Shown: positions 1-22,499 of the stretch, in pieces | How positions within the stretch are numbered: position 1 is the first letter of the stretch | How the letters are laid out: every line of letters starts with the position of its first letter | From: a virus | Strand: one strand, 5' to 3' | IMG/VR virus record: IMGVR_UViG_3300044857_000313 | Span: 23,140 to 87,139 of that record | DNA length: 64,000 nt | Made by a program: the position numbers and the translations under genes | The notes under the pieces: model-generated | Told to the model about the DNA's origin: nothing | What the model saw: only the letters and a program-made list of their open reading frames with translations | Database searches by the model: none

Positions 1-55
1 AAGTCCGAAGCGTATCTAAGCGATTCTAAGCGTACCCGAAAGGAGAAGACACACA

Positions 56-1159
56 ATGCCAAGAACACGACAAAGACGAAATAAGGGTGAAGGTTCGATA
101 ACCAAGACACCCAATGGGAAGTACAAAGCCACCATCACGATTGGAGTGGGTATTGATGGCAAGCAAAAGAGGAAGTCGGTAACAAGAGACACCAAGCGAG
201 AAGTCATCGACGCCATCACGGAAATAAGACACAAATATAATATAGGTGATGTATCAAAGGGTGTGTCTAAGAGCGTCAAGGACGTTTGTGATGAGTTTTT
301 AGACACCAAGGAACAGAAACTCACTGTGTCCTCTTTCGTGTCTTACAAAATGCACATCAAGGCATTTAAAGAGGTGTTTGGAAATATGATGATGGAAAAT
401 ATAACAAAGACCATGATTGAGGATTACTTTAAGTCCCTGTCCCCTCATCATTATAAACCAACTACCTTAAAGACCAAGAAGGCTATATTGTCTATCTTCT
501 TTAGAGAAGCAAAGAAGGCAGGGTATATCAAAGAGAATATAATGGAGACAGCCAGTATCCCTATCAAGCGTGTCTTACCCAAGGCATCTACTATGATACT
601 CCCCACTCCTGAACAGTTCCATAGGATACTAGAGGAAGCGGAAAAGTATGCCCATTGGTATTATGTGCTCCTCTATTTTGCCTCTGTTACAGGAATGAGA
701 CGAGGAGAACTTTTAGGATTGAAATGGGACTGTGTGGATAAAGACACCAAGACGATCAGAATTAATAATCAAATAAACATCAAGGGTGTAGACAGTCCAT
801 TAAAGACCCCTGCGGCCTATCGGACAATTCATGTCACCCCAAAGGCTTTTGAGGAGCTAGACACACTGCCACATGAAGGAGCTTATGTTTTTTCGCGTCC
901 CAAAGCCCCTACAAGGCCTGTTACAAGAGCTATGGTGTCTTTGGCTACCAACAGGGTATTTAAGGCCGCTGAGGCCCCAAAGGGATTTACTTTTCATGAT
1001 GTAAGACATTATCACGCAACACAGCTTTTAAAGCATGGTATTAACCCAAAGGTTGTCAGTAGGAGATTAGGACACACATCGGTAGTTACTACCCTCAACA
1101 TCTACTTTAATTATCTCCCCAGTATGGACGAAGAGGCCAGTGTTGTCTTAGACACGTAA
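56..1159 (+). CDS. int: Tyrosine-type site-specific integrase
   Basis: 367-aa ORF with AAAGGAG Shine-Dalgarno upstream. Catalytic signature R (GMRRGELLGL), HxxR (HDVRHYHAT), H and Y (LGHTSVVTTLNIYFNY). Confidence 0.9.
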   Translation: MPRTRQRRNKGEGSITKTPNGKYKATITIGVGIDGKQKRKSVTRDTKREVIDAITEIRHKYNIGDVSKGVSKSVKDVCDEFLDTKEQKLTVSSFVSYKMHIKAFKEVFGNMMMENITKTMIEDYFKSLSPHHYKPTTLKTKKAILSIFFREAKKAGYIKENIMETASIPIKRVLPKASTMILPTPEQFHRILEEAEKYAHWYYVLLYFASVTGMRRGELLGLKWDCVDKDTKTIRINNQINIKGVDSPLKTPAAYRTIHVTPKAFEELDTLPHEGAYVFSRPKAPTRPVTRAMVSLATNRVFKAAEAPKGFTFHDVRHYHATQLLKHGINPKVVSRRLGHTSVVTTLNIYFNYLPSMDEEASVVLDT

Positions 1160-1324
1160 GTGCTTATAAGGTGCTTATATGAGAAATAGACACGAGTACA
1201 TGAAATTATAAATGGCTAAAAATAGCGGTTTTCCTCTGTTCTTAGCTATTTATAATTTTATTCCATATTCTATCAAGAATAAGACAACCATGCTGTTTAT
1301 AAGATATGTGAGTGCTTATAGGTG

Positions 1325-1567
1325 CTAAAGGGTAATACTTGTGTCTATCGAGTGGCGCAAGAACTCGTATAGACCTTTGCGGTGTATTCTCCAATGAGTA
1401 CCTATCTTAAATGCTTTCAAGGATTCATTATAGCACAAGGCGTAAACAGTAGACAAGGGAACTCCTAGCATCTCTGAAACTTCTTTAGGAGAGAAGGTAA
1501 GGCGAGTGTCCCATTTATGAGAAGGAGTTGAGGTGAAACCATCAACATCAATACTTAAATAGGCCAT
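1325..1567 (-). CDS. xis: Excisionase-like helix-turn-helix DNA-binding protein
   Basis: 80-aa ORF next to int. The segment FSPKEVSEMLGVPLSTVYALCYNESLKAFKIGTHWRI resembles Xis/AlpA-type winged HTH. Confidence 0.55.
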   Translation of the reverse strand: MAYLSIDVDGFTSTPSHKWDTRLTFSPKEVSEMLGVPLSTVYALCYNESLKAFKIGTHWRIHRKGLYEFLRHSIDTSITL

Positions 1568-1720
1568 AAGGCTCCTTTCGTAGACTAAAGGAAATCTTAG
1601 TAGACTTGAGATATGAAAAAATAGTAAGAAGCTTTAAGAATCTCTTTCTTTGATTTATCATCATCATCAACAATCATCATTAAAGAATCTCTAGTCCCAT
1701 ATCTGTCATAATAATAAAAT

Positions 1721-1754
1721 ATGAGGTTCTAGTCAGAACCGACTAGAACCTCAT
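1721..1754 (-). terminator. Hairpin terminator downstream of terL
   Basis: Perfect 14-bp stem atgaggttctagtc/gactagaacctcat with a 6-nt loop, followed on the minus strand by AUUUUAUUAUUAU. Copy B keeps the hairpin with a compensatory tc..ga to cc..gg change. Confidence 0.55.
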
Positions 1755-1792
1755 AGATTCTATTAGATACTATATATACTTTTCGTCTCTTT

Positions 1793-1815
1793 TCTTCGGT
1801 TGGTGCCACAATTAA
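1793..1815 (-). promoter_or_regulatory. Degenerate phage-RNAP promoter-like element (after terL)
   Basis: Minus strand TTAATTGTGGCACCAACCGAAGA versus family consensus TTAATTGTGCCACGTAGTGAAGA. Confidence 0.35.
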
Positions 1816-1819
1816 TTTT

Positions 1820-1842
1820 TTGTTTAATGGTGCCACAATTAA
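1820..1842 (-). promoter_or_regulatory. Degenerate phage-RNAP promoter-like element (after terL)
   Basis: Minus strand TTAATTGTGGCACCATTAAACA shares the upstream half of the promoter consensus. Confidence 0.3.
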
Positions 1843-1849
1843 TTTCTGT

Positions 1850-2464
1850 CTAATTATCATGTAGCTCTCTAATAGCTTTTATACATCTATTATTATGCGA
1901 ACTATTTGTATAATTAGGCAATACGGATTCATTCAGCCAATCCTCAAGCTGTTCAGCTGTCAGCTCTGTAAGTTGACTATCTTCATCCACATCCATGCGC
2001 TCCATAAAATAAGACACCCCAATAGTCAGGGCATCCAATCTATCATCATGACTTAGGGCGTTCTTATCACGACATAAGCGTGTCATTTGATAAATCAGGG
2101 AATAATGATAGTCCTGTTGGAAGACCTTAAAATCCTGTTCTACTACTGGACGATTCACAATTAGCTTATGCCGCATCATAACCGGCTCTAGGGTGTCTAT
2201 CATACGCAATTCCTTTTGCCCTCTATTGGTAACAGGTTCAATGCCGCAAGGGTGGATTTTATTGAAGATAGGTGTCATCAACTTAGTGAACATGCCATCC
2301 CCAAAGTTATCTTCGGGAACTACAACATCCACATCCCAGAACTTAGCACGATTTGCCATCTGAGTCAGCGTCAAGTCCGAATATCCCTCTTTAAAGCCCC
2401 CTACATCCATAAGGAACAAATAGCCATTCAGGTACTTTAAGATTGCATAGACTGTTTCGTCCTT
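1850..2464 (-). CDS. terL: Terminase large subunit, exon 2 (C-terminal nuclease part)
   Basis: Collinear with residues ~362-565 of intact copy-B TerL (45244..46941). Exon 1 plus exon 2 total 1698 nt, exactly the length of the copy-B gene. Confidence 0.85.
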   Translation of the reverse strand, partial: KDETVYAILKYLNGYLFLMDVGGFKEGYSDLTLTQMANRAKFWDVDVVVPEDNFGDGMFTKLMTPIFNKIHPCGIEPVTNRGQKELRMIDTLEPVMMRHKLIVNRPVVEQDFKVFQQDYHYSLIYQMTRLCRDKNALSHDDRLDALTIGVSYFMERMDVDEDSQLTELTAEQLEDWLNESVLPNYTNSSHNNRCIKAIRELHDN

Positions 2465-3275
2465 CAATCAGCCTATGCGTTCTGCTTTCCAACCCTTTGA
2501 GTGATGTCGGTTTCCTTTAGCCACTTGACGTAGATTTTGGGGTGAAAGATTATGCTCTCTGCAAAAAGCAGTAAAAGAAAAAGGCTCATACATCGTACCA
2601 TCAGGTGCAATAAGCCTGAATCTTTCACCCTGTCCATAATTATGAGGAACATGCCCTTTTTGAAGAGTAGTAGGGAGACAGTCAGCACATACTGTCCCTG
2701 ACTTGCGTTTTTGTAAATATTTACCACAAATAGGACAACGAACTGTTTTTCTGTCTCCCCCTGCTCTTACATTCCACCCCATATGCATTTTAGGACGTAG
2801 ATTATATTCTATTGTTAATGCTTCTTCTTTTGGTAACATAGCAATTAAATCAATTTGAATATTATCCTTACCCAGTTGTCTTAGAATTGTGCCAACAGGT
2901 CTCTTGCTACACATATGCTGACTAAGACGATAGGAAAGACTACGGCGAGTAACACCCACATAACCTTCCTGTATATTTCTGTTTCCTACTTCATGGATAT
3001 GGTACACTTTATATAATCTTGTTTTTTCTCTAAACAATAACATCACTCTCTTTTCTTTTTAGTGTTACGGTACATCGTTAGGGTACCTCACTATATTGCT
3101 ATAGTGTTCAGACTATATCTTCTATCAAAAGATAGTGCGCTGTTTCCACCGAACCATTGCGGTGTACTAATAGTCGTTGAACGTTTCCTTATAAAAGGAC
3201 TTCGCTGCTGATTGTCTTAGAAAGAGTTTCCAGCAATTAAGCGCATTTTTTAACGTAGGAGCAAGGACGTATTTT
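2465..3275 (-). mobile_element. Group I intron (811 nt) interrupting terL
   Basis: Insertion relative to copy B. The 5' exon ends in U (..UAGGGGU) and can pair with intron GCUCCUA (P1, U.G at the splice site). The adjacent GUCCUU pairs perfectly with 3' exon AAGGAC (P10). The last intron nt is G. The region upstream of the HE ORF has many short hairpins. Confidence 0.75.
2468..3043 (-). CDS. GIY-YIG homing endonuclease (intron-encoded)
   Basis: YKVYHI..(11 aa)..GYVGVTRRSLSYRLSQH motif, later E and N residues, CPICG..CADC zinc finger and a C-terminal HTH-like tail, as in I-TevI-type enzymes. Confidence 0.8.
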   Translation of the reverse strand: MLLFREKTRLYKVYHIHEVGNRNIQEGYVGVTRRSLSYRLSQHMCSKRPVGTILRQLGKDNIQIDLIAMLPKEEALTIEYNLRPKMHMGWNVRAGGDRKTVRCPICGKYLQKRKSGTVCADCLPTTLQKGHVPHNYGQGERFRLIAPDGTMYEPFSFTAFCREHNLSPQNLRQVAKGNRHHSKGWKAERIG

Positions 3276-4358
3276 ACCCCTACCCGATGGGTCTATAGCC
3301 ATCACTGTTGTCTGATAGGGCATCGTTTCGGGACTACGGGACAGCTCACTGTAGTAATAGTCCCCTGCCATGGCTGTACAGGGAATATCAGACAAGAGCT
3401 GTTCCCTGCCTTTTGCCCATGCCCATTTGAGGCTACTTTCCTTCATATCAAGGTTAGTGATAATCAAATCAGACACCTTCAACGGATACTTTTCAGCATC
3501 CGACAACCGAGTATTGAGCATATACTGGAGAGCAAACCCTGCTTTCCCATAAGACAAGGAACGCTTCGCAATTTCTTCCTCATTGAATCGCAAGGGGTCT
3601 GTAGGCTTCCCTTCAAGACTAGGGTCAGCTTTCAGTTTGTTCCAAATAGAGGGAGCAAGGGAATCACCATAATTATCTTCTACCCTTGATAATTGAGGAT
3701 ACAAGACAGGCCAGATACGCGCAATATATCCACGGTCTTGTAAGGTGTTGTACAGACTTGATTCAGTCTGTGGTGTACCGAGATATATGATCTGGCCGTT
3801 CGGTTTCAAGATAGCATCAAATTCCTTTACGGCCTCTGAGAGCTTATCACGCTGTTGCTGTGTTGCTGAGTTTTTCGGGACTTCTACGTCATCGGCAATT
3901 AGAATGTCTGCACGTGTCCCTGTAATCTGCCCAGTGATACCAATGGACTTTACAGAGGGGGAAATATCAGGAACGACACCCCCAACATCAAAGATATTCT
4001 GTGTGTCTAACTGCCCCTTGTCTGCAATCATGTCAGACAAGAAAGGGAGTGTCTGTATGATACGCTTGATAAAGCGAGCGTTCGCATCCGCTCTGTCCCC
4101 AGAGGCAGACACAATCAAAATCTTTAGCTGTCTTTCCTTCCACAATCTCCACACTACATAAGCACATGTCAAGAAGGACTTAGCGACACCACGGAACCCC
4201 TCAAGAATGATACGGTCTTTAGGGGGGTTCTGGAGATAGTTTGCAATGTCAATTTGAATGGGTGTCGGCTGTGGAAGGTCAATAGACCGCCATACAATAT
4301 AGACAAAGGCCCAGAAGTGTTCACGTGCCTTCTGGACATCCGCTTCACTCCATTTCAA
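3276..4358 (-). CDS. terL: Terminase large subunit, exon 1 (ATPase part)
   Basis: Nearly identical to residues 1-361 of copy-B TerL. The unspliced reading frame runs into the intron and stops at 3237. Confidence 0.85.
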
Positions 4359-4362
4359 TCTA

Positions 4363-4602
4363 TCAACCTTCTTTCACAAGTTCCATGAAGTCAGGAATCT
4401 TAGAGGCTTCCTGTTTTACTTCTTTGACACCTTCAATCTCAACAGTGGTGTTGAAATCGTTGTCTTTCAAGAACTGCCGTACCTTTGCGAGGAAGGCAGG
4501 ATTTTTACGTTGTTCTTCATCCTCAAGCCCTTCTAAGAGAGCCTGCACTTCTTCGGTTGCCAAGCGGTCAATCAATTCCTGTGGAATATTAAAATTAGCC
4601 AT
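4363..4602 (-). CDS. Small acidic protein, possible small terminase (T7 gp18 position)
   Basis: 79-aa ORF immediately upstream of terL. Assigned on position and size only; conserved in copy B. Confidence 0.35.
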   Translation of the reverse strand: MANFNIPQELIDRLATEEVQALLEGLEDEEQRKNPAFLAKVRQFLKDNDFNTTVEIEGVKEVKQEASKIPDFMELVKEG

Positions 4603-4608
4603 TTATCA

Positions 4609-5063
4609 TCATCCTCTCTCCATACTACATACTTTTAAATCTTTGTGTGTCTTCCCAAATATAATGATTGCACTAGGGAAAGGCGCACTATTCTTACTGT
4701 TTCCAAATTTCAAACATCCTTTGATGAAACGAATCTCTGAGGCTTGCATGGCGTACTCATGCCACCACTTTGTGTCTGTTCGTGAAGGTACGAGGCAGAC
4801 AACGATTGTCTCTGCTTCCATTGCTTTCTTCATCCAAGCTCCTATTTTTTTTTTCCATAGGGTGGATTCATCCAACAGACACCCTGCCAGTCTTGAGCTA
4901 GACCGTCATCAAGGGGTGAAAAGAACTTAGAGCATTTTGCATTTTCAGAGGTAGCACATACATCTATATCAAAATGAAATTCATCATTCAATCTATTAAA
5001 TAACTCTTGTGGTGTCTCCCACACTTCATTTTCACTACTATATAAAACCTTATTTATCGCCAC
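4609..5063 (-). pseudogene. Phage Dam-family DNA N6-adenine methyltransferase, frameshifted in an A10 tract
   Basis: ORFs 4842..5063 and 4609..4875 together are collinear with the intact copy-B gene. Motifs WETPQELF, DVCAT.ENAKC, NPPYG, SRTDTKWWH. Coding-strand A10 (4845..4854) versus A8 in copy B. Confidence 0.8.
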
Positions 5064-5144
5064 TATAAGCCTCCTACGTAAAAATAAAATTCCCCATAGG
5101 TAAATACACCTACAGGGAGTTACATAACTTCTATTCTCAAGATA

Positions 5145-5357
5145 TTAAGGGATAGACACAATTTTAACCTTATCTCCATATCTCCTGATAGCAGAATCAG
5201 GGCTACAACCAAATCTGTATGGAAATAAAGGACATTTCAATAATTCACATTTACGTACTTCTGCATCGTTTCCTGCACAACAGTCCATGCATTTTTCGCG
5301 GATTGCACGTTTAAAGGAAGTCTTAGTGACCTTCATCATTAAAACCTTATTACTCAT
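5145..5357 (-). CDS. Small Cys-rich protein, unknown function
   Basis: Start taken at MSNKV (GGGGGTG SD; ATGA overlap with the upstream ORF stop). CMDCC..C..C motif; conserved in copy B. Confidence 0.5.
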   Translation of the reverse strand: MSNKVLMMKVTKTSFKRAIREKCMDCCAGNDAEVRKCELLKCPLFPYRFGCSPDSAIRRYGDKVKIVSIP

Positions 5358-5788
5358 CGTGTACACCCCCAAATCAACAAGCCACCTGCAACGACCCAAG
5401 CCAAATCACGCTGTCGCTCCATCCGCTTTACCGACTTATTCAGAGAGTCCGTTTGCTTTTGCAATGTCGTCAAATTCTGCTTGTAATCGGTCAAGTACAC
5501 TTGCGCTTTCGTCAGCTCTTTCTGAGATTCTGTTAGCTGTGTCTTGAGCTTCTGTGAGTCCTGTTTCTGCGCTGTTGACTGCTTCTGTAGCTCTGTCACC
5601 ATCTGTCGTAAGCTGTTGAATTGTTCGATTGACATTTCGACTTTCTGCGGACTCTGTGCGTGAACTGTAGAAGTAGACACAGAGGGAAAGACACAAAAGC
5701 ATACCAACAGTGAAAGACACAAGCACCATCTTTGCAGAATATTTTTTGTTGTTGTCTTCATCCATTTACAACTCCTCATACCATTCAT
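5354..5788 (-). CDS. Lysis-cassette membrane/coiled-coil protein, frame 1 (unimolecular-spanin-like architecture)
   Basis: N-terminal Cys-containing signal-like segment LCLSLLVCFCVFPSVS, Q/K/E-rich coiled coil, C-terminal TM LAWVVAGGLLIWG. Stop overlaps the next start as ATGA. The true start is probably internal. Confidence 0.5.
   Translation of the reverse strand: MNGMRSCKWMKTTTKNILQRWCLCLSLLVCFCVFPSVSTSTVHAQSPQKVEMSIEQFNSLRQMVTELQKQSTAQKQDSQKLKTQLTESQKELTKAQVYLTDYKQNLTTLQKQTDSLNKSVKRMERQRDLAWVVAGGLLIWGCTR
5436..5765 (-). CDS. Overlapping alternative-frame ORF: N-terminal TM plus coiled coil (i-spanin-like)
   Basis: 109-aa ORF in another frame of the same DNA. ATG lies 6 nt after GAGGAG and directly after the endolysin stop. 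Open in both phage copies. Confidence 0.4.
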   Translation of the reverse strand: MDEDNNKKYSAKMVLVSFTVGMLLCLSLCVYFYSSRTESAESRNVNRTIQQLTTDGDRATEAVNSAETGLTEAQDTANRISERADESASVLDRLQAEFDDIAKANGLSE

Positions 5789-6359
5789 TCATATCTACCT
5801 CTGTGTCTCCAATATATTCATGTGCGCTCCACTGCCAACCTGCTACATGCTTATCAGGGTAGTCCTGCAAAAACCCATTGTATCCACGGTAATCTGCAAT
5901 CCAATACGGTACATAGTCAGCAAGTAAGTTAGGCCGAATGGAGTTTGTCATGTAATCTGTACATTTCAGCGTTGACGTATAAATCCCTGCTCTGTGTCCT
6001 GCTTCATTGCAAGCGACAATAAAAGCAGAGCAAAGGGCTGTGGTGTCTACACCTTCTGCAAAACATACATCAGCTTCACAATCGTACCAAATGCCCATAG
6101 GCGGCACATCATCACCAAGGAGTTCCAAGATTGTCTGAGCTTCTTCCCTTGCTCTTTCTGGTGTCTGAGCATGAGAGAAACAGTAGACACCCCAAGGGAT
6201 ACCCCTAGATTTACATTCTTCTGCGTGTCTTACCCATGTGTCTTCTTCGGAACACCCTTCGGAAATTTTGATAATGACACCTTGAACCCCTGCGGCCTCT
6301 ACAGCATCATAATCAATATTGCGCTGATAATAGGAAACGTCAATTACTTTATTTGTCAT
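5766..6359 (-). CDS. Endolysin, glycoside hydrolase family 25 muramidase (no cell-wall-binding domain)
   Basis: IDVSYYQ, IIKISEG, GVYCFSHA and WYDCEAD motifs typical of GH25 lysozymes. Confidence 0.85.
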   Translation of the reverse strand: MTNKVIDVSYYQRNIDYDAVEAAGVQGVIIKISEGCSEEDTWVRHAEECKSRGIPWGVYCFSHAQTPERAREEAQTILELLGDDVPPMGIWYDCEADVCFAEGVDTTALCSAFIVACNEAGHRAGIYTSTLKCTDYMTNSIRPNLLADYVPYWIADYRGYNGFLQDYPDKHVAGWQWSAHEYIGDTEVDMNEWYEEL

Positions 6360-6819
6360 CTAATCTGTCCACCTTCTTCTCTTTTGCAATCTGAGCAAGC
6401 GCACCCCTGATAAAGCTAGGGATGTACTGCCCATAACCAACACGATCAATATTTTCAACAATACTAAGGGCCTCTACCACTGCAAAGGCTCCAATGAATA
6501 ACGTCCGTACCATGTGAGTGTGCATTGCTGAATCCAATAGAACACCTAGACCAATGATAAGGAACATAGCGGCCTTCTTATATAAGCCATGTGTCGCAAT
6601 CGAACTTGCAAAGGCATGGAGTTTGAAGGAAGCCCAAAGGCCTGTGAGAATGTCACAAGCCACAAGGACAACCAAAGCATTAATCTGCTCATCCACCCCG
6701 CCCACAAGCTGATTGAAACACAACCAAGCAATAGAAAAAAGACAGCCAATCTTTACCTCGGTGGCTGTCCATAAGTTCCATAATGTGTTAATCATCTTAT
6801 GTAGTGTACCTCGTTTCAT
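6349..6819 (-). CDS. Holin (LL-H / Phage_holin_4 type)
   Basis: Multi-TM 156-aa protein with LVACDILTG..K....S....G.YKK and EALSIVEN motifs; overlaps the endolysin start. Confidence 0.8.
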   Translation of the reverse strand: MKRGTLHKMINTLWNLWTATEVKIGCLFSIAWLCFNQLVGGVDEQINALVVLVACDILTGLWASFKLHAFASSIATHGLYKKAAMFLIIGLGVLLDSAMHTHMVRTLFIGAFAVVEALSIVENIDRVGYGQYIPSFIRGALAQIAKEKKVDRLDDK

Positions 6820-7034
6820 TTTTCATCTTCCTTTTGTTCCTTTAAGATGGCATGGGAAATGCGAGCGTCAAGAATTTCAATATAAGCATCCATCACATCT
6901 GACTGCCGTCGCAATAAATAGCGTTCTGTATCGTCTATAATCTTAGAGTTATCACTTCTAAACCCCATCAACTTACACATTTTCTCTGCTAAAGCACGAC
7001 GTTCATCCATCATGCGATAAATATAATCTTTCAC
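6816..7034 (-). CDS. Hypothetical protein (copy-A specific)
   Basis: 72-aa ORF tightly packed between holin and the next ORF. No counterpart in copy B. Confidence 0.4.
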   Translation of the reverse strand: MKDYIYRMMDERRALAEKMCKLMGFRSDNSKIIDDTERYLLRRQSDVMDAYIEILDARISHAILKEQKEDEK

Positions 7035-7037
7035 CTT

Positions 7038-7271
7038 CTATGCCCCCTTTCGCCTTAAAATATCTGATAGTAACTTAGCTACTTTATGTTTATTTACATA
7101 CCCGTGCAATAGCTTATACAGCACACCCTTTCTCTTTTGCTTCTTTAGCTCCTTTTCCCTTAACACAAATGGACATTCATTATATGCTATATATACTGAG
7201 CATTGAAAACAATGCTTTTGCATACTACAATATTCTTCTATTTCTTTCTTAGATATGATATTTCGTTTCAT
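7038..7271 (-). CDS. Hypothetical Cys-containing basic protein (copy-A specific)
   Basis: 77-aa ORF downstream of the tail fibre gene. No counterpart in copy B. Confidence 0.4.
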   Translation of the reverse strand: MKRNIISKKEIEEYCSMQKHCFQCSVYIAYNECPFVLREKELKKQKRKGVLYKLLHGYVNKHKVAKLLSDILRRKGA

Positions 7272-7316
7272 TATTCAGACACCTTCTTCCCTACACAGTC
7301 CTATTCATTGTTATAC

Positions 7317-9278
7317 TTAATATTTGATACCATAGATAGCTACAATACCAGAGTTCTCCTTGTTGCAACACCAAACAGTATCCGTTGATAAAGTATAATC
7401 TGTAGCTGTACCTTGATAAGTATCCCCATAAATAAACCAATATAAACTCGACCAACCTAAAATACAAAATCTGTAACTATTAGCAAATGCAAAAGCAAGT
7501 TCCCAAACGTCCCACATTTTATATACTAATACATCACCATAGTCATTACATGCTTTGATAAGTATTTTGTCAAAGTCTTTGTAGCTCTGAGTTAACTTAA
7601 TGGTACCGGCAGGGTAACTGTTCTGCATACCAAGACCACCATTATACGCATAGATACCGAATGAGTCATTCCAAATATTTTGTATGGAATTTCTAGCTTT
7701 GTTAATATTTGCTTTTTCTGATGCTTTATCTGAATCACTCATAGCTGACAGGTCAATAGTACCTGCTCTGTCAAATATATCTGTAATGACTGGCGTATGG
7801 TTTCCCCTTAAACGCTCTAATACACTGCTAACTTCATCTGTAGTAGCAACAGCTTTAAATTTTGTATCATTTACAGGATGGTCGGCATTACCCCCTCTAT
7901 AGTAAAGACGCCCTATATTTTGTTCTATCCACAACTGTGTACTTTCGTCGTTTTTATCAGCTGAAATATTAATAAGCTGTCCATATTGTGTTGGTTGGTT
8001 ATCTATGGTGCTTTGCGTATAATATATGCTACAAAATCCTAACTTATTCCACCCTTTATTAGATGTATCAGAAGGAGCATAGTTATTCCCATAAGAATGA
8101 ATGGTGTCCCATAGCGTATTAGGTGTTACTTTAGGGATGTCGCTCCATGTACCGTCCGCCTTTAGATACCTCCCCTGCTGTCCTGCTAAAGGTTTTGGAA
8201 CTTTACCACCCATACCATCTGCGGACGCTGTGGCCCCCTGAAAGTCCTGAAAGACACCTGCGGATTCTGCGGCCTGTTTAGCACTGTTAGCGGCGGCCAG
8301 CTCTGAATTATGCGCATTAGCGGCACTCGTAGCAGACGCACTAGCACTAGACGCACTGGCAGAGGCACTTGCACTCGCATTAGTTTCCGATGTTTTTGCA
8401 TTGGTTTCTGAGGTCTTTGCCCTCGTTTCGGATGACTTCGCATTGGTTTCCGAGGTTTTCGCATTGGTTTCAGAGGTCTTTGCGTTTGTCTCAGAATGCT
8501 TAGCGTTCGTTGCGGACGTTGCCGCTTCCTGTGCCTTCGTTTTGCTATACAAAGCCCACTCTTTAGAACTCTGTGTCTTCCCTGTGGTACTATCCGTATC
8601 CACTTCACCATCTGGAGAATCCGTAGCTTCTGCCCACTTCTTCGCCTTTTGATGAGAGATTTCTGAATTGGTTTCCGAAGTTTTTGCATTTGTCTCCGAG
8701 GTCTTAGCGGCTTCCTGCGAAGACTTTGCGGCGGACGCTTGCTTCGTTGCTTCCTGTACCAAAATTGTATTGGCCGCTACAAAACCACCCTGAACAGTTT
8801 CCATGTAATTTTTCGTTACTGCGTCTTGAGGGTCTTTGGGGTCACTTACGTTAATGACACGATGATTCAATGCATCCCAAAGGACTTCTTTATCACTCGT
8901 TACTTTCGTAGAAATAGCATGAGCCATAATATAGTCCTGCTGTTCTTCCTGCAAGTGGAGCATCTGAGCATCTTCTGTGTTCATGTCCCGTGCCAACAAG
9001 ATAGAGCCATCATTCCACGTAACAATCTTATCTGTACTTGTCTGTCGATAAATAATGATATGTTCTCCAACCTGTGCAGGGGTGGTCAAAGACACAGATA
9101 AATCATTTACTGTGTAGTCTACCCCATACTCCAATGCTGTTTCCGAAGCATCGGAGTGAAGGATAGACACCATGACAAACTCCTTGCGGAGATATGAAAA
9201 GGGGAACGTATACGTCTTTTGTGTCCCATCGGTAACTTCATATTCCACACGAGCTTTAAAGCCTGTTGTGTTTGCCAC
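7317..9278 (-). CDS. Tail fibre protein (T7 gp17-like N-terminus)
   Basis: N-terminus MANTTGFKARVEYEV..TFPFSYLRKEFVMVSIL..NDGSILLARDMN..AQMLHLQEE parallels T7 gp17. SETNAKT heptad repeats and a distinct C-terminal tip. Confidence 0.9.
   Translation of the reverse strand: MANTTGFKARVEYEVTDGTQKTYTFPFSYLRKEFVMVSILHSDASETALEYGVDYTVNDLSVSLTTPAQVGEHIIIYRQTSTDKIVTWNDGSILLARDMNTEDAQMLHLQEEQQDYIMAHAISTKVTSDKEVLWDALNHRVINVSDPKDPQDAVTKNYMETVQGGFVAANTILVQEATKQASAAKSSQEAAKTSETNAKTSETNSEISHQKAKKWAEATDSPDGEVDTDSTTGKTQSSKEWALYSKTKAQEAATSATNAKHSETNAKTSETNAKTSETNAKSSETRAKTSETNAKTSETNASASASASASSASASATSAANAHNSELAAANSAKQAAESAGVFQDFQGATASADGMGGKVPKPLAGQQGRYLKADGTWSDIPKVTPNTLWDTIHSYGNNYAPSDTSNKGWNKLGFCSIYYTQSTIDNQPTQYGQLINISADKNDESTQLWIEQNIGRLYYRGGNADHPVNDTKFKAVATTDEVSSVLERLRGNHTPVITDIFDRAGTIDLSAMSDSDKASEKANINKARNSIQNIWNDSFGIYAYNGGLGMQNSYPAGTIKLTQSYKDFDKILIKACNDYGDVLVYKMWDVWELAFAFANSYRFCILGWSSLYWFIYGDTYQGTATDYTLSTDTVWCCNKENSGIVAIYGIKY
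8386..8512. repeat. 21-bp tandem repeats encoding (T/S)SETNAK heptads in fibre shaft
   Basis: Repeated gcattggtttc[ct]gaggt[ct]tt units; about six units here plus a short block near 8655..8700. Confidence 0.8.
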
Positions 9279-9296
9279 TATCTATCACTCTCCTTT

Positions 9297-12200
9297 TTAT
9301 TTAGCTTTCAAACTATTTAATTTTGCCAGTGTGTCTATAGCCTGTGTATAGGGGATAAAATCAGGAATAGGCGCCAAGTTTAATAACGTCCTCAAATCCT
9401 TTTGTGTCCCCTTGCTGGTAGCTAGTCGATAGGCACTGCGAATTGGTTTCCATGTCATATCCGACAAGGTATCCACAGCAGGTAACTGTTGGACACTATT
9501 GCCCACAAAGTCCCCAAAGTCTTTAGGGGGATTATTCCGATACTGTGATACTGTTGTTCTGATTGTAGGAGAACCGTACATAGCTTCCCATCCATCATTT
9601 ACAACACCCATAGGCGACAAGAAACCTGTTCGGAAAAATGCGGCCTTTGCTAGGGCCTTGTCATTCAGATAGTTTTCCTTGAGGTAGTTAGCGGCGTCTG
9701 TCTGTCCCAGCGCATACAGAGTGGCCATCTTAGCGCCATTACGAGCGGCAAAAGCGGCTGTGTTGGTCATAAGAGAAAGAGCAAATGCCATGGCATCCTG
9801 AGCTTCATGCTGTTGAATCATTCGCATAAACTGAGCATTGTTTGAGCGCATATTGAAGTCTTTAAACATCATGACAAGACGCATTAAAGAGTTTGTGTCT
9901 TTCAGCATATTTCTGTTGCCTTCGGACGAACTCAATAAGACACTCTTTTCCACCTGATTCTGCATCAGATCATACCAAGCCCAGAAGGTATCAGGACTTT
10001 CTTTTCTCCATGCATCTACATCAAAACCATCTGCAACAGTTCCTTTCTTGCCCTCCCACTTCACATAGGTACGCAAGTCTTTTTTCATCTGTGCAAGGTC
10101 TACGTGTCTGCCAAGAGCCTTGATATTTGCCTTGCTGAATGGATTACGTAACGCATTGAAGGTTTCTCCATGCGCCCAACGAATCGAATCTGTAATGGCC
10201 GCACTACGAGCAGAGCGCACCATTGTGTCTGTCATATGCCCAAGCATGTTAATCTGTGAAGTGAACTTGCCCAGATTGTGTGTCATATCAGCCGCACTAA
10301 TCAATAGGTTGTCCACCCCAAAACCACGTTTAGACAAGGCATTACGGGTCTGTTTGTCTCCCCAATTCCCACGGAAAATGTAGCGTTCTACAGGTTCCCC
10401 AAAGACATGCCACGAGAGGTCTTCAACCATCTTAGAATTAGCTTTCCCAAGACGAACATCCTGTACGAATTTACGCAAGGGATTGAAGACACCAAATACC
10501 TGTTTTAGACCACCATAGGCAATAGCACCCCCTAAGTCGCCTAACTGGTTCCATCCCATCGAGCCACCACGCTTGAAGTATGCAAAGTTGTTGAGAATCT
10601 TTGTGACTGCTGAACCCTCATCATAGATGTTTCGTTCGTAGTGGTCACGCATCCCACGGAGCCGTGCAATGTTGTCTAAGAACCACCGCTTATTTTTTTC
10701 GGCTGTGGAACTGTTGATACGCCCATCATTCCCCATGGAAGCAAGTCGCAATTCATGGAGTACCTTCTTCACGAAAGCACCATATTCATTAGCAGAACCA
10801 AGGACGTTACGGACTGCCACCTCTCCTGCAAAACGTCTATTCGTTCTGTTCAGGGTGTGTTCGAGGTCATAGTATCTAAGGTCATTATCAAATGAGAAGG
10901 CTTTAACAACATTACCTTCTGCATCTTTAATATCCATGACAACACCTGTGTCCATCGGAAGACGCCCACGGAAGAAGTTCAAGTCCCCAAGTTTAGAGGA
11001 AGCACCATCGGTGTCTAAGCCATCCAATTTATCCTCAAGAGGTTGCATGATGTTGTCTGCCCATTCCTTACACTTTTCATCCCTGAAATCATCAATTTCT
11101 TTATCTGTGGTGTCTTTGATAGTGATAGCACGTTTTTGTTCAAGTTCTTCTTTGACACGTTTAACTTTGGCATGGTTAATCTTTTCTGGATCTTTAAGTG
11201 CTTCTTTTTTTAAAAAGGTCTCTGCATCCTTAATTTCACGCTGTAGTCTCAGTTCTTTTTCACGTTTAATCATCTCCCCAATCAACTTACGAGACGTAGG
11301 CATATTGGAAGCGACTTGTGCATACTTCTCCATAAAAGCTCTCGCTCCCTTATCACCTGTGGTGGTGAAGTTAGACACAAACTCCCTATAAGCATCAGGG
11401 TCAACTAAGCGATGAAATTCATCGTCGACTGAATACCATCCATCCTCAATCAAGTTTCGTTCCATAGAACCTCCAAAAATAGAGGATGAATTTTTGCCAA
11501 GGTCAATACGGGTATCATAAAGACCCTGCAAAGACTTGACGGCCTTCATGACATTCTGGTCTACCATCGCATCATCAATGTTAATGTGTGTCTGCTGTTT
11601 AGACAAACTGTTGAACTTATCAATGACAAGCTTATCAAATTCTTGTCTATGGGCATCCCCCTTGCGGAAAGGATTAATGACACCCATTGTCCCATAGTGG
11701 TCACGTATCCACTCTTTACGAGCATCAAGAATATCGCCTTTGTACTTATCAAGCTGTCCCATGAGATAGCCCTTCATTCGTTCAGCAGATGGCATATTGG
11801 AACCATTACGAGATGTACCACGACGCTGTGCATCTTCCCATAATTCAGAGGCTTTCTTCGCAAGCGTCATAGACGGAGAATGATAAGCGGCCCCATATGG
11901 AGTACGAGTCAGCAATGTATTGTCCATCCACCCCGATAAGGTATTGACGGTCTTTTCAAAGGCTGTCTTTCCTTTTCGTTCCTGCGCCAATTCATCTGCA
12001 CTCTTTTCATAGTCGAGAAGACTTTCAGGAGCAAGCATGTTGTCTTTCGAGAAATGGACACCATTCTGAATAATGCTCCCATCGGGATTAACAATGATAC
12101 CCTGCTTTTTCAAGCTCTGATAGCGAACCGCTGTATTGACCATGTCGAGAATCTCGTTGTTGGTGAATTTTGATTTATCACCAAACCCCATTTCCTTTAG

Positions 12201-14411: not shown

Positions 14412-14432
14412 TGTGTCTTATCTCCTTTCTAT

Positions 14433-16793: not shown

Positions 16794-17608
16794 GTAGCAC
16801 CTCTCCTTGAAATACCCCCATTAGACCAATCATAAGACAAGCCACTACTCATGTCACCACTAAAGTAACCATTGATAGCATTACTTGCAAAAAGGCCGTG
16901 AGGATTGAATAAATTCATACTGTCATATTTTGCAGACGCTTCATCGAGGTCTACAATTCGTGTCCCAATCTCTGTATTGTGAATGTCTTCACTGTGGATA
17001 TAGGGGTCAAGATTTACAGGTTTAACGTCCCCTGTATGTCTATCAAGTGTCTTTCCCTGTCCGCCTTCAACACCTGCTTTCTTTCTCATGCTCTTAATAC
17101 CCTGTAAGGTATTATAGGTCTGCATGAAATCAGAAAACATTTCCATACCCTGTGTAAGATAAGATGGTGTCTCAACGGACGAAATACTATTGATAGCATT
17201 ACGTGTAGAGATAAGCGCCGCTTCCTTATTGAGGTCAATTTCATTCATTTTATTTTGATAATTAGCCTGCGCCTGCGAAGCAACACGGGATTCATCTGCA
17301 CGAACACTACGATTAATCAAGTTAGCTGTTCTGCCACCTCCTGCCAACTCTTCGTTGACAGCGGCCTTAACAGACGCTTCCTGTCTATGAGCGTTCATCC
17401 TGTCTTTCGTCATTGCATCAATCTGAGCGGCGAAAGCGGCCCTACGCTGTGTCTCATAGTTTTGAAAGGTATAGTTCATAGACTGGAGCAATCCCCTTGC
17501 GGTCTGATTGTTGGCATCAATCTGATTCTGAATTTCAGCCCTACTTGCTTTCTGCTTAGACAAAGAGCTGAGAGCTGAAATACCATAACTAAGTGCTACG
17601 GTACACAT
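16766..17608 (-). CDS. Internal virion protein (gp14 position)
   Basis: 280-aa ORF. Assigned on synteny. Confidence 0.55.
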   Translation of the reverse strand: MCTVALSYGISALSSLSKQKASRAEIQNQIDANNQTARGLLQSMNYTFQNYETQRRAAFAAQIDAMTKDRMNAHRQEASVKAAVNEELAGGGRTANLINRSVRADESRVASQAQANYQNKMNEIDLNKEAALISTRNAINSISSVETPSYLTQGMEMFSDFMQTYNTLQGIKSMRKKAGVEGGQGKTLDRHTGDVKPVNLDPYIHSEDIHNTEIGTRIVDLDEASAKYDSMNLFNPHGLFASNAINGYFSGDMSSGLSYDWSNGGISRRGATWRNGLLVL

Positions 17609-17611
17609 TCG

Positions 17612-19954: not shown

Positions 19955-19960
19955 GGTGTC

Positions 19961-20527
19961 TTATCTCCTTTCCAATGCACTCTGCATCCCTGTGGTCTGA
20001 AACATGTTGGAACCTGTGTCTATACAATACTGGACAATATCGGCATAAGCTCTTGATTCTTCAATCCGTAACTCCTGAGATACATTTTCGTCACCAAGGT
20101 AACGTTCCTGAAAGAAAATAGCCGCTTCTGCTGTAATGAATGTTTTGAACTCATCAGGCAAGTCCTCAAAGTCAACGGCTTCAATGATGGTAAGTTGCAC
20201 CTCTTCATTGAAGGTATCTGTCTTCTCTGTAAGATTGTATAGAAAATCCCCACGTTTTACATAGACCTCACCATTCGTCGCTGTAATCTTTATCCATGAT
20301 GGATTGTATCGAATCTTTTTGCTGTTGGTGTCTGGCATAATAGTTACATTGGTCATGGTGTTGAACTGCCAGCCTTGACGCTGGATATTTCGAGACACCG
20401 TAGCTAGTAGGCTTCGTGCATTATCAACATCAATAGATTCACTCTCTGTTAAGCTATTGACAGGAGCTTCCCCAATGCCTGAAAGAATCAGATTGATTGC
20501 GTCTAACTCTGTGGATACAAATAGCAT
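19961..20527 (-). CDS. Tail tubular protein A (gp11-like)
   Basis: 188 aa; size and synteny match T7 gp11. Confidence 0.75.
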   Translation of the reverse strand: MLFVSTELDAINLILSGIGEAPVNSLTESESIDVDNARSLLATVSRNIQRQGWQFNTMTNVTIMPDTNSKKIRYNPSWIKITATNGEVYVKRGDFLYNLTEKTDTFNEEVQLTIIEAVDFEDLPDEFKTFITAEAAIFFQERYLGDENVSQELRIEESRAYADIVQYCIDTGSNMFQTTGMQSALERR

Positions 20528-20542
20528 CTTTTCACTCCCTTT

Positions 20543-20575
20543 AAAAGAATAAAAAGGGGAGCATTACACTCCCCT
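20543..20575 (-). terminator. Intrinsic terminator after major capsid gene (T-phi position)
   Basis: Minus strand GGGGAG-UGUAAUG-CUCCCC followed by UUUUUAUUCUUUU. Confidence 0.65.
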
Positions 20576-20593
20576 ACACCTATCAACAATCTA

Positions 20594-22484: not shown

Positions 22485-22499
22485 TATTTATCAATCTCC

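What the first reader, a model, noticed from the sequence alone, without database searches (positions are those of the whole stretch)
2465..3275. Group I intron with GIY-YIG homing endonuclease in terL of copy A; intronless allele 43 kb away in copy B
Copy-A terL is split by an 811-nt insert that is absent from copy B.

**Evidence read directly from the sequence:**
- The 5' exon ends ..UAGGGGU. It can pair with intron nt 14-20, GCUCCUA (7-bp P1 with the canonical U.G at the splice site).
- The immediately preceding intron nt 8-13, GUCCUU, are perfectly complementary to the first six 3' exon nt, AAGGAC (P10).
- The last intron nt is G.
- Exon 1 (1083 nt) plus exon 2 (615 nt) total 1698 nt, exactly the length of the copy-B gene. 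This gives GRG-K-DET where copy B has GRG-T-DET.
- The 230 nt upstream of the HE ORF are rich in short hairpins.

The codons flanking the insertion site differ synonymously between copies (AGG GGT versus CGT GGG ACG). That could make the copy-B site resistant to the endonuclease, which would explain how intron-plus and intron-minus alleles coexist in one molecule.
Basis: seen in the sequence. Interest (0 to 1): 0.65.

Follow-up and report, generated by a model that had tools for sequence, protein, structure and literature searches.

The report
Mobile group I intron in terL
The 811-base insert in this phage's DNA-packaging (large terminase) gene is a real self-splicing group I intron carrying its own homing nuclease, a well-known kind of selfish element in phage core genes; it is a clean new example, not a new mechanism.

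Summary
Copy-A terL (minus strand) is interrupted by exactly 811 nt (3275..2465). Exons of 1083 and 615 nt add up to the 1698-nt uninterrupted copy-B gene.

**Intron.** The insert starts with a group I ribozyme: Rfam RF00028 scores 78.7 bits, E 2.5e-18. On 16 homologous introns my hand-drawn P1 and P3-P9.1 structure has 94.6% of cells paired, and 40 of 60 pairs show compensatory changes. P1, P10 and a 2-bp P9.0 covary with the exons, which fixes both splice sites.

**Endonuclease.** The 192-aa ORF (3046..2468) has three parts: a divergent GIY-YIG domain, a zinc ribbon and an I-HmuI-type DNA-binding tail. The GIY-YIG call is supported at family level only.

**Mobility.**
- All 41 full-length relatives of the ORF sit in an intron at the same terL codon, in TerL proteins 99% to 29% identical.
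- One divergent host gene (L004) carries a 95.6%-identical intron. Its exons match over only about 30 nt next to the splice site, which is a co-conversion footprint.

**Not supported.**
- No spliced RNA junction was found.
- The "resistant copy-B site" idea has no support.
- Read depths suggest the two copies are separate co-occurring phage strains, possibly joined by the assembler.

Verdict: a new member of a known kind, of modest interest.

The parts
3276..4358 (-). terL exon 1 (1083 nt, TerL aa 1-361: ATPase domain and the first residues of the RNase-H-like nuclease domain, ending ...AIDPSGRG).
   Evidence: ORF list, DNA alignment with copy B and PHROG/Pfam terminase hits.
2465..3275 (-). 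Group I intron, 811 nt. The 5' splice site follows U3276 and the terminal G (omegaG) is 2465.
   Evidence: The insert is absent from copy B. Rfam RF00028 scores 78.7 bits. Both splice sites are fixed by P1, P10 and P9.0 covariation.
3276..3283 (-). P1, 5' strand: last 8 nt of exon 1, GUAGGGGU.
   Evidence: It pairs with intron nt 14-21, with U.G at the splice site. Three of the 8 P1 pairs show compensatory changes in 16 homologues.
3255..3262 (-). Internal guide sequence (P1 3' strand), intron nt 14-21, GCUCCUAC.
3263..3269 (-). P10 strand of the guide, intron nt 7-13, CGUCCUU. It is complementary to exon-2 nt 1-7 (2464..2458, AAGGACG).
   Evidence: In homologues P10 is 5-12 bp and changes with the exon. 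When exons were permuted among 15 introns, none of 10,000 permutations reached the observed pairing.
3069..3245 (-). Ribozyme core. P3 3245-3240/3141-3136; P4 3235-3230/3211-3206; P5 3225-3215; P6 3205-3203/3183-3181 (3 bp, GCG/CGU); P6a hairpin 3199-3186. P7 3175-3170/3116-3111 forms the pseudoknot and G-binding helix. One extra hairpin lies between P7 and P3' (3164-3147). P8 3135-3122; P9 with a GCAA loop 3106-3089; P9.1 3087-3069. There is no P2.
   Evidence: Hand-drawn structure counted on alignment A4: 94.6% of cells paired, 40/60 pairs with changes on both sides, 0/500 shuffles as high, slid controls 33-47%. The MFE fold reproduces every helix except the pseudoknot.
2468..3046 (-). Intron-encoded homing endonuclease ORF, 192 aa (GTG 3046, ATG 3043; stop TGA 2470..2468, 3 nt before omegaG). 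Residues about 10-97 form the GIY-YIG-like domain, 103-123 a CxxC...CxxC zinc ribbon, and 143-188 an I-HmuI-type DNA-binding domain.
1850..2464 (-). terL exon 2 (615 nt, TerL aa 362-565, the rest of the nuclease domain).
45244..46941 (-). Intronless terL allele (copy B, 565 aa). The empty site lies between 45859 and 45858 (CGTGGG|ACGGAC).

Best explanation
The insert 3275..2465 (minus strand) is a mobile, self-splicing group I intron in the large terminase gene of a temperate phage with a T7-type terminase.

**Splicing (inferred from structure).**
- The pre-mRNA folds into the P3-P9.1 core.
- The guide sequence at intron nt 14-21 pairs with the last 8 exon-1 nt. This puts the U.G wobble at the 5' splice site.
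- A free guanosine bound in P7 attacks there.
- Intron nt 7-13 then pair with the first 7 nt of exon 2 (P10).
- The two U before the terminal G pair with AA of J7/9 (P9.0). This brings G2465 into the G-site across the 580-nt ORF.
- The exons are ligated to give a 565-aa TerL reading ...DPSGRG-K-DET...

**Mobility (inferred).** The ORF lies downstream of P9.1 and encodes a GIY-YIG nuclease joined to a zinc ribbon and an I-HmuI-type DNA-binding domain. In mixed infections or lysogens it would cut intronless terL alleles near this codon. Repair from the intron-plus allele would copy in the intron plus a few tens of nt of flanking exon (homing with co-conversion).

**Shown here:** the insertion, the ribozyme structure and its covariation, the splice-site pairings, the strictly conserved insertion site, the intact conserved ORF, and a co-conversion footprint.

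**Inferred, not shown:** catalysis, splicing in vivo, and nuclease activity and specificity.
For: **Ribozyme.**
- Rfam RF00028 scores 78.7 bits, E 2.5e-18, and is the only family hit in the 64 kb.
- On 16 homologues, 94.6% of cells are paired and 40/60 pairs are compensatory. None of 500 shuffles reached this, and slid controls gave 33-47%.
- The MFE fold recovers the helices, z = -2.79.

**Splice sites.**
- 40/40 homologous introns have T at -1 and end in G. Intronless alleles have T36/C18/A13/G12 at -1.
- P1 and P10 complementarity tracks each intron's own exons: 0 of 10,000 permutations did as well.
- P9.0 covaries as AA/UU, AC/GU and GA/UC.

**Site specificity.** Every full-length relative of the ORF lies in an intron between TerL aa 361 and 363. 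That covers 40 IMG/VR loci and 1 Veillonella MAG, with TerL identity from 99% down to 29%.

**Mobility footprint.** The L004 intron is 95.6% identical to the window's. L004's exons are about 60% identical, except for the 30 nt upstream of the 5' splice site (97%). All four presence/absence combinations of this intron and a second terL intron occur in terL genes about 88-99% identical.

**Endonuclease.**
- 58 homologues were found, with invariant Y12, Y15, Y29, G31, R40, H44, E80 and N92.
- 22/39 hit PF01541 and 29/39 hit PF22083.
- The C-terminal domain matches I-HmuI 1u3e.
- The N-domain model's best PDB matches are I-TevI 1ln0 and Slx1.

**Known kind.** Group I introns with homing endonucleases in phage terminase genes are documented (PMC3984707, PMC11878797).
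Against: - No spliced exon junction (GGU|AAG) was found in any RNA-labelled run. Every joint seen had G or C at -1, so they are intronless DNA alleles. One true transcriptome (X34) shows only an unspliced contig. These are assembler contigs that drop rare forms, so the result is uninformative rather than negative.
- The window's own ORF does not reach Pfam GIY-YIG at E<=0.01, and NCBIfam finds nothing.
- The fold match to I-TevI is weak (E 0.24, TM 0.46).
- The intron has no P2 and only one hairpin between P7 and P3'.
- A wobble-rich alternative P1 register exists (intron nt 8-17).
Confidence: 0.87

Rival explanations
1. The intron is a decaying relic. The ribozyme and/or endonuclease no longer work, and copy-A terL is a pseudogene in a defective prophage.
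For: No spliced RNA was seen. A neighbouring Dam-like methyltransferase gene in copy A is split by a frameshift at an A-run (4842..5063 and 4609..4875), while it is intact in copy B. The window's ORF scores worse against Pfam GIY-YIG than many of its relatives.
Against: Every core helix, the U.G pair, omegaG, P10 and P9.0 are intact in the window. The ORF is full length and keeps all family-invariant residues. Near-identical introns (98-99%) sit in at least three independent phage contigs of 38-46 kb (L001-L003), with intact exons. The intron-plus allele reaches a depth of about 224 in run X1, comparable to the intronless strain. That fits a replicating phage.
Confidence: 0.06
2. The gene is genuinely split. 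Two TerL polypeptides (ATPase plus a short tail, and the nuclease domain started at TTG 2467) are made and assemble without RNA splicing.
For: The ORF finder reports exon 2 as an ORF starting at TTG 2467..2465. Exon 1 reads 13 codons into the intron before a stop.
Against: The break lies inside the conserved DPSGRG|xDE motif, 7 residues into the RNase-H-like domain. The TTG is the last three intron nt and is not conserved: other introns end GTG, TCG, CCG or AAG. The exon-tracking P1, P10 and P9.0 pairings have no role in a split-gene model.
Confidence: 0.03
3. The intron splices, but the ORF product is not, or is no longer, a site-specific homing nuclease. It could be a nickase, a regulator or a splicing helper, with the intron now inherited only vertically.
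For: The GIY-YIG assignment is indirect for the window protein. No cleavage data exist. Intron-plus and intron-minus alleles persist side by side in the same samples.
Against: L004 shows a co-conversion footprint. The same site is occupied in TerL proteins as little as 29% identical, while the ORF stays 49-98% identical. The catalytic-type residues R40, H44, E80 and N92 are invariant. Presence or absence of two introns is patchy among terL genes about 88-99% identical.
Confidence: 0.1

Closest known systems
Phage T4 td / nrdB / nrdD(sunY) group I introns with GIY-YIG endonucleases (I-TevI, I-TevII)
   Same: Both are self-splicing group I introns in an essential, highly conserved phage gene. 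Both have an extra hairpin between P7 and P3' (subgroup IA-like). Both endonucleases have a GIY-YIG catalytic domain, then a zinc-binding linker, then a C-terminal DNA-binding domain. As in nrdD/sunY, the ORF lies at the 3' side of the core, so P9.0 and P10 must select a distant 3' splice site. That comparison comes from my own knowledge of these introns.
   Different: The host gene is terL, not a nucleotide-metabolism gene. There is no P2 and only one P7.1-type hairpin. The DNA-binding tail is of the I-HmuI type (PF22083), not the I-TevI type. The GIY-YIG domain is too divergent for Pfam to detect in the window protein.
Group I introns in terminase large-subunit genes of other phages (Bastillevirinae such as SIOphi, PMC11878797; terminases listed as typical targets in PMC3984707)
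   Same: The gene class is the same, and a single terL can hold several introns. Splicing has been shown experimentally for some of these. The endonucleases carry PF22083/NUMOD-type DNA-binding modules.
   Different: Those are large virulent Bacillus myoviruses with a different terminase family (phrog_675). Their terL intron ORFs were reported as VSR-like or HNH. Here the terminase is T7-type (PF22530, phrog_38), the phage is about 43 kb and carries an integrase, and the nuclease is GIY-YIG.
I-HmuI (SPO1 DNA polymerase intron HNH endonuclease, PDB 1u3e)
   Same: The C-terminal DNA-binding domain (residues about 130-188 here) aligns with I-HmuI residues 111-168: profile E 0.002, Foldseek E 2.4e-4, rmsd 1.3 A.
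   Different: There is no HNH catalytic domain. The PHROG label 'HNH endonuclease' (phrog_2081) rests only on this shared tail.

Membership tests
Group I intron (Rfam RF00028) | Covariance-model score at or above the curated gathering score. | tested here: met
   78.7 bits against a gathering score of 50, E 2.5e-18. 26 further hits occur in related loci.
Group I intron (Rfam RF00028) | P1 formed by the 5' exon and an internal guide, with U.G at the 5' splice site. | tested here: met
   An 8-bp P1 with U3276.G (intron nt 14). T at -1 in 40/40 homologues, against 36/79 intronless alleles. Compensatory changes occur at 3 of 8 pairs.
Group I intron (Rfam RF00028) | Terminal G (omegaG), and P10/P9.0 defining the 3' splice site. 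| tested here: met
   G2465, and G in 40/40 homologues. P10 is 7 bp here and 5-12 bp in homologues, tracking each exon (0 of 10,000 permutations as good). P9.0 covaries as AA/UU, AC/GU and GA/UC.
Group I intron (Rfam RF00028) | Conserved core P3-P8 with the P3/P7 pseudoknot (G-binding helix P7). | tested here: met
   All helices are present in the window. P3 and P4 are 100% paired with 5 and 4 compensatory pairs. P7 is 97.9% paired and nearly invariant.
Group I intron (Rfam RF00028) | Guanosine-dependent self-splicing, with ligated exons in RNA. | tested here: inconclusive
   Contigs from seven RNA-labelled runs were laid on the gene. Only unspliced or intronless-DNA-type forms were seen. Contigs drop rare forms.
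Subgroup IA group I introns | Extra pairings P7.1/P7.2 between P7 and P3' (definition from my own knowledge, Michel & Westhof classification). | tested here: inconclusive
   One well-supported hairpin at that position (3164..3147), 100% paired with 4 compensatory pairs. There is no second hairpin and no P2. No subgroup-specific model was available.
GIY-YIG homing endonucleases (Pfam PF01541) | Significant match to the GIY-YIG domain profile. | tested here: inconclusive
   The window protein has no hit at E<=0.01, or even E<=10. 22 of 39 homologues (48-93% identical) hit PF01541, best E 1e-7. NCBIfam finds nothing.
GIY-YIG homing endonucleases (Pfam PF01541) | Motif residues: GIY-type and YIG-type tyrosines about 10-15 residues apart, then a conserved Arg, Glu and Asn. 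| tested here: met
   YKVYHI (Y12, Y15), GYVGxT (Y29, G31), R40, H44, E80 and N92 are invariant in 39 sequences. The alignment to the UvrC GIY-YIG domain is in register, but its E is 1.4.
GIY-YIG homing endonucleases (Pfam PF01541) | GIY-YIG alpha/beta fold. | tested here: inconclusive
   The AF2 N-domain model has pLDDT 81.7 and topology b-b-a-a-b-a. Its top three PDB matches are I-TevI 1ln0_B (E 0.24, prob 0.84, TM 0.46-0.48) and Slx1 6seh/6sei. None is below E 0.001.
GIY-YIG homing endonucleases (Pfam PF01541) | Site-specific cleavage of the intronless allele and intron homing. | not testable with these tools
   Only indirect evidence is available: strict site conservation in 41 loci and a co-conversion tract of about 30 nt in L004.
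HNH homing endonucleases (label of phrog_2081) | HNH / beta-beta-alpha-metal catalytic motif. | tested here: not met
   The PHROG match covers only residues 143-188. There is no HNH Pfam family even at E<=10. The match to I-HmuI is limited to its C-terminal DNA-binding domain.

The most novel reading that the evidence does not exclude
The most novel reading not excluded comes from the intron family, not the window copy. More than half of its members (L005-L024, L025, L028) lack the P8 hairpin altogether, yet they sit in terL genes whose exons read through intact, several on contigs of about 40-43 kb. If these splice, they would be natural group I ribozymes working without P8. The window intron (5-bp P8) and its P8-less sisters at the same site would then form a ready-made natural series for asking what P8 contributes. 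A second, weaker possibility is that intron-plus and intron-minus phages really are tandem lysogens in one chromosome. That would imply the copy-B site (G at -1, ACG codon) is immune to the endonuclease.
Probability: 0.2. Interest if true: 0.6.

Novelty: new member of a known kind. Interest (0 to 1): 0.3.

Why it matters
**Annotation.** Gene callers will report a truncated terL, an "HNH endonuclease" and a second terL fragment here. The correct product is one 565-aa TerL, and the ORF is a GIY-YIG-type homing nuclease.

**Biology.** This adds a well-populated intron/endonuclease family to the list of mobile introns in phage packaging genes. It spans more than 40 loci in gut and wastewater phages, with one hint of a Veillonella host. 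All members target one codon of the nuclease active-site motif of T7-type terminases.

**Use as a model system.** Several features make it a convenient natural system for studying homing, co-conversion and ribozyme minimisation:
- co-occurring intron-plus and intron-minus strains;
- a visible co-conversion tract;
- a second, independently assorting terL intron;
- sister introns without P8.

It does not reveal a new mechanism.

Tried and rejected
- **RNA evidence.** I laid contigs from seven RNA-labelled runs (X6, X9, X11, X17, X19, X25, X26) and one true transcriptome (X34) on the gene. Every skip across the intron carried CGTGGG or GGC-type letters, so they are intronless DNA alleles and not the GGU|AAG product. 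X34 and X9 show the unspliced form. This is inconclusive.
- **Megablast of the gene against 50,697 GenBank phages.** No match. By protein, the nearest cultured relatives are Ralstonia and Delftia T7-like phages at 54-57%.
- **Exact look-up of the ORF product.** Not on record.
- **NCBIfam on the ORF family.** Nothing relevant.
- **Profile searches against PDB sequences for the N-domain.** No hit. The full-length profile found only the I-HmuI tail.
- **Full-length fold search.** It was dominated by the C-terminal domain, so I modelled the N-domain separately.
- **Target-site diversification.** I looked for excess diversity at the insertion site among intronless 99%-identical alleles as a sign of endonuclease escape. 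There is none: pi is 0.087 at the site against 0.062 overall, and other windows reach 0.13.
- **Unconstrained P1 search.** My first automatic search picked a 10-bp, wobble-rich alternative register in the window (intron nt 8-17). I rejected it as the family P1 because the homologues anchor the guide at GC[CU][UC]C.
- **Intein.** Ruled out: the insert is not an in-frame continuation of terL.
- **tRNA or att evidence for integration.** No tRNA genes were found.
Full report
**1. The observation**

The terL gene of copy A lies on the minus strand. The ORF list shows a 373-aa ORF (4358..3237) and a 205-aa ORF (2467..1850), separated by a 192-aa ORF (3046..2468). Copy B has one uninterrupted 565-aa ORF (46941..45244).

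A DNA alignment of the two genes places a single 811-nt gap in copy B, opposite 3275..2465. Exon 1 (4358..3276) is 1083 nt and exon 2 (2464..1850) is 615 nt. Together they make 1698 nt, exactly the copy-B length. Joining them gives ...DPSGRG-K-DET..., where copy B has ...DPSGRG-T-DET...

- P1 is 8 bp: exon GUAGGGGU with intron nt 14-21 GCUCCUAC, with U.G at the splice site.
- P10 is 7 bp: intron nt 7-13 CGUCCUU with exon-2 AAGGACG.
- The last intron nucleotide is G2465.

**2. Is it a group I intron?**

Rfam's Intron_gpI model is the only family that reaches its gathering score anywhere in the 64-kb window. It scores 78.7 bits against 50, E 2.5e-18, at 3326..3089 on the minus strand. The printed alignment matches P3 through P9 well. 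It forces P1 into exon 1, so its start coordinate is not the splice site.

By hand, the core reads as follows (coordinates):

| Element | Window coordinates | Note |
|---|---|---|
| P3 | 3245-3240 / 3141-3136 | UGCGCU / AGCGCA |
| P4 | 3235-3230 / 3211-3206 | |
| P5 | 3225-3215 | short |
| P6 | 3205-3203 / 3183-3181 | 3 bp, GCG / CGU |
| P6a | 3199-3186 | hairpin |
| P7 | 3175-3170 / 3116-3111 | GACUAU / AUAGUC, the pseudoknot |
| Extra hairpin | 3164-3147 | between P7 and P3' |
| P8 | 3135-3122 | |
| P9 | 3106-3089 | GCAA tetraloop |
| P9.1 | 3087-3069 | |

There is no P2. The 239-nt 5' part folds at -59.4 kcal/mol, better than all 200 shuffles (z = -2.79). The MFE structure contains every one of these helices except the pseudoknot.

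**3. Comparative evidence**

A database search with the ORF product found 58 homologues. A scan of IMG/VR with their alignment returned 40 loci that encode full-length relatives, 49-98% identical. In the 20 of these I scanned, an Rfam group I core ends about 45 nt upstream of the ORF.

A tblastn search with the copy-B TerL shows that in all 40 loci the insert lies between TerL residues 361 and 363. The host TerL ranges from 99% down to 29% identity to the window's. The only hit among 185,579 species genomes has the same arrangement: a contig of an uncultured Veillonella MAG.

I aligned 16 non-redundant introns (A4) and counted my hand-drawn structure on them:
- 94.6% of 901 cells form standard pairs.
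- 40 of 60 pairs have changes on both sides.
- The covariation score is 0.571, against 0.187 ± 0.011 in shuffles; none of 500 shuffles reached it.
- Sliding the 3' partners by 1-3 columns drops pairing to 33-47%.

The structure was drawn on the window sequence, which favours register 0. Even so, the number of compensatory pairs (40 against 12-20 in the slid versions) is not explained by that bias.

**4. The splice sites**

All 40 homologous introns follow a T and end in G. Among 79 intronless homologues, the same Gly codon ends in T 36 times, C 18, A 13 and G 12. So U at -1 is tied to the presence of the intron, as the U.G pair requires.

The guide sequences follow their own exons. Some P10 examples:

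| 3' exon | Intron strand |
|---|---|
| AAGGAC | GUCCUU |
| GCAGAU | AUCUGC |
| exon nt 2-11 AAGAUGAAAC | GUUUCAUUUU |
| GGUGAUGAAGUUU | AAACUUCUUUACU (12 of 13 pairs) |

When exons were permuted among 15 introns, none of 10,000 permutations reached the observed summed P1 or P10 pairing.

The two nucleotides before the terminal G pair with J7/9 nucleotides 3-4. This P9.0 pairing covaries as AA/UU, AC/GU and GA/UC, and is fully paired in 13 of 16 introns. It explains how a 3' splice site about 600 nt downstream of the core can be selected.

**5. The ORF**

Pfam does not detect a GIY-YIG domain in the window protein, even at E<=10. It reports only a sub-threshold I-HmuI NUMOD-like match at residues 146-186, plus zinc-ribbon hints. 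PHROGs calls the protein an "HNH endonuclease", but that match covers only residues 143-188.

Family-level evidence for GIY-YIG:
- Of 39 aligned family members, 22 individually hit PF01541 (best E 1e-7) and 29 hit PF22083.
- Invariant residues fit the GIY-YIG pattern: Y12 and Y15 in YKVYHI, Y29 and G31 in GYVGxT, then R40, H44, E80 and N92.
- The best PDB sequence match of the single protein is the UvrC GIY-YIG domain. It is in register but not significant, E 1.4.

Structure models:
- An AlphaFold model of the whole protein has pLDDT 82.7. Its C-terminal domain superposes on I-HmuI (1u3e, E 2.4e-4, rmsd 1.3 A).
- A separate model of residues 1-100 has pLDDT 81.7 and topology b-b-a-a-b-a. Its three best PDB matches are the I-TevI catalytic domain (1ln0_B, E 0.24, prob 0.84, TM 0.46-0.48) and two Slx1 chains, all GIY-YIG nucleases. 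None is statistically strong.

I conclude that the ORF has three parts: a divergent GIY-YIG nuclease, a CxxC...CxxC zinc ribbon (residues 103-123, absent from four family members), and an I-HmuI-type DNA-binding tail. This layout parallels I-TevI but uses a different DNA-binding module. The HNH label is not supported.

**6. Mobility**

L004 carries an intron 95.6% identical to the window's, in a terL only about 60% identical. Exon identity to the window is 97% in the 30 nt next to the 5' splice site, with the first 11 nt of exon 2 identical. It falls to about 60% further out. That is the expected footprint of homing with a short co-conversion tract.

Close relatives of the window's terL show every combination of this intron and a second one at codon 157/158:

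| Loci | Site 157/158 | Site 361/362 |
|---|---|---|
| Copy B, L072-L075 | absent | absent |
| Copy A | absent | present |
| L001-L003 | present | present |
| L079, L080 | present | absent |

. Further introns occur at codons 177/178 and about 416 in more distant relatives.

The insertion point is seven residues into the Pfam Terminase-T7 RNaseH-like domain, in the motif DPSGRG|xDE. The motif is conserved from the window's clade out to TerLs about 44% identical. From general knowledge of terminase nucleases, this strand probably carries a catalytic Asp. That last point is an inference.

**7.

*Resistant copy-B site.* Copies A and B differ at four of the twelve positions around the site (AGGGGT|AAGGAC against CGTGGG|ACGGAC). 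The A-type flank AGGGGU is matched by A's own guide (GCUCCUAC, against GCCUCGAC in CGUGGU-type hosts). It also travels with the intron into L004. So the cluster of differences is what co-conversion plus splicing constraints predict.

Among five intronless 99%-identical alleles, nucleotide diversity at the site is 0.087, against 0.062 gene-wide. Other 30-nt windows reach 0.13, so there is no sign of site-specific escape. Resistance of the copy-B site remains untested.

*Coexistence in one molecule.* The window's two copies are about 90% identical over 1506-20543 and 44889-64000. The read depths argue against obligatory linkage:
- In run X1, A-type and B-type segments have similar depth: about 224-294 and about 167-186.
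- In run X3, the A-type integrase and intron have depth 5.5-6.9, and 3.6-20.3 kb has depth 0-25.
- In the same run X3, 20.3-23.6 kb has depth 55-67 and 43.6-45.6 kb has depth 51-107.
- The switch at about 20.3-20.4 kb lies within about 250 nt of 20543, the base exactly one repeat period before the window's last base.

The simplest reading is that 20.5-64.0 kb is one complete B-type genome and 1-20.4 kb is the A-type version of the same region. The two would have been joined either by an assembler walking through two co-occurring strains or, less likely, in a real tandem lysogen. I put the assembly explanation at roughly two in three. Either way, intron-plus and intron-minus phages do co-occur in the same samples.

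**8. RNA evidence**

No run gave the ligated-exon junction. Skips across the intron in wastewater "RNA-Seq" libraries all carry G or C at -1, with letters identical to intronless DNA alleles. A gut metatranscriptome (X9) and a single-organism transcriptome (X34, 2713-nt contig, depth 203) contain the unspliced form. These are assembler contigs, may include DNA, and drop minor forms. The test is inconclusive.

**9. Comparison with what is known, and novelty**

Mobile group I introns with GIY-YIG, HNH and other endonucleases are a classic feature of phage core genes, and terminases are named among the usual targets (PMC3984707). Multi-intron terL genes with experimentally shown splicing were described in Bastillevirinae (PMC11878797).

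The present element works like the T4 td and nrdD introns with I-TevI-type enzymes. It differs in four ways:
- the host gene family is a T7-type terminase;
- it lacks P2;
- its DNA-binding module is of the I-HmuI type;
- its GIY-YIG domain is divergent enough to go unrecognised, and the only source annotation any full-length family member carries is "hypothetical protein".

I found no paper on this family, but the library is incomplete. It is a new member of a known kind. Interest is 0.3: solid and tidy, useful for annotation and as a natural homing system, but not surprising.

**10. Most unusual by-product**

More than half of the sister introns have no P8 hairpin. P3' runs directly into the J8/7 sequence AAGAUAUAGUC. 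Yet their terL exons read through intact at every locus, and several lie on contigs of about 40-43 kb. I did not follow this up beyond the alignment.

Noticed in passing
window 1..20400 versus 20500..64000 (junctions near 20.3-20.4 kb and 44.7 kb): Read depths in run X3 are 0-25 over 1-20.3 kb, but 55-67 from 20.3 kb on and 51-107 at 43.6-45.6 kb. The switch lies about 150-250 nt from 20543, one repeat period before the window end. The 'two copies in one molecule' may therefore be one full B-type phage genome plus the A-type variant of 20 kb, joined by the assembler.
   Followed up: partly
L001-L003, L007-L010, L013, L014, L019-L023, L035-L039, L079, L080 (terL codons 157/158, 177/178, about 416): Relatives carry one or two further group I introns in terL. 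Some are ORF-less (257 nt in L001, L003, L079) and some are about 790 nt (L002, L080). All four presence/absence combinations of the codon-157 and codon-361 introns exist among terL genes about 88-99% identical. The window has neither extra intron.
   Followed up: partly
L005-L024, L025, L028 (alignment A4 columns 169-188): These sister introns at the same terL site lack the P8 hairpin entirely: P3' is followed directly by J8/7 AAGAUAUAGUC. Their terL exons still read through intact, and several lie on contigs of about 40-43 kb. Their Rfam scores are correspondingly lower (52-67 bits).
   Followed up: no
window 3259..3268 with 3276..3285: There is an alternative, wobble-rich 10-bp pairing of the G-rich exon-1 end with intron nt 8-17 (GUCCUUGCUC). 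It competes with the family-consistent P1 and would occupy the P10 strand. It uses the same 5' splice site.
   Followed up: no
window 4609..5063 (-) versus 47192..47659 (-): A Dam-like DNA methyltransferase (NPPY motif) is one 155-aa ORF in copy B. In copy A it is split into 73-aa and 88-aa ORFs at a run of A (…NPPYGKKK*). This is a frameshift, a sequencing error or slippage.
   Followed up: no
window 56..1159 (+) and 44719..44899: Copy A has a complete tyrosine integrase (Pfam Phage_integrase, E 5e-25) next to the 3' end of terL. Copy B keeps only two short remnants (61 and 112 nt, 88-91% identical) of its start. No tRNA gene is present in the window.
   Followed up: no
L071 (NZ_URAR01000007.1, uncultured Veillonella sp. 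UMGS823): This is the only hit of the endonuclease family in 185,579 species genomes. It has the same intron at the same terL codon, on a 107.6-kb MAG contig (38.8% GC over the 8.6-kb locus fetched). It hints that the hosts are Veillonella-like. Runs holding the window sequence come from sludge, wastewater and dog or human gut.
   Followed up: partly
window 3098..3280 in runs X6, X11, X25, X26, X34: The ribozyme core has several-fold higher contig depth than the flanking exons, and many contigs diverge at 3170, 3200 and 3239/3240. Closely related cores therefore sit in other sequence contexts in the same samples.
   Followed up: no
window 51478..52040 and 8374..8519: Internal tandem or direct repeats (units around 40-100 nt, 72-90% identical) lie inside a gene of the structural region. 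They are much more expanded in copy B than in copy A.
   Followed up: no
window 2468..3046 (-): PHROGs assigns the ORF to phrog_2081 'HNH endonuclease' solely through the shared I-HmuI-type C-terminal domain. Automated annotation would mislabel this GIY-YIG-type protein.
   Followed up: yes
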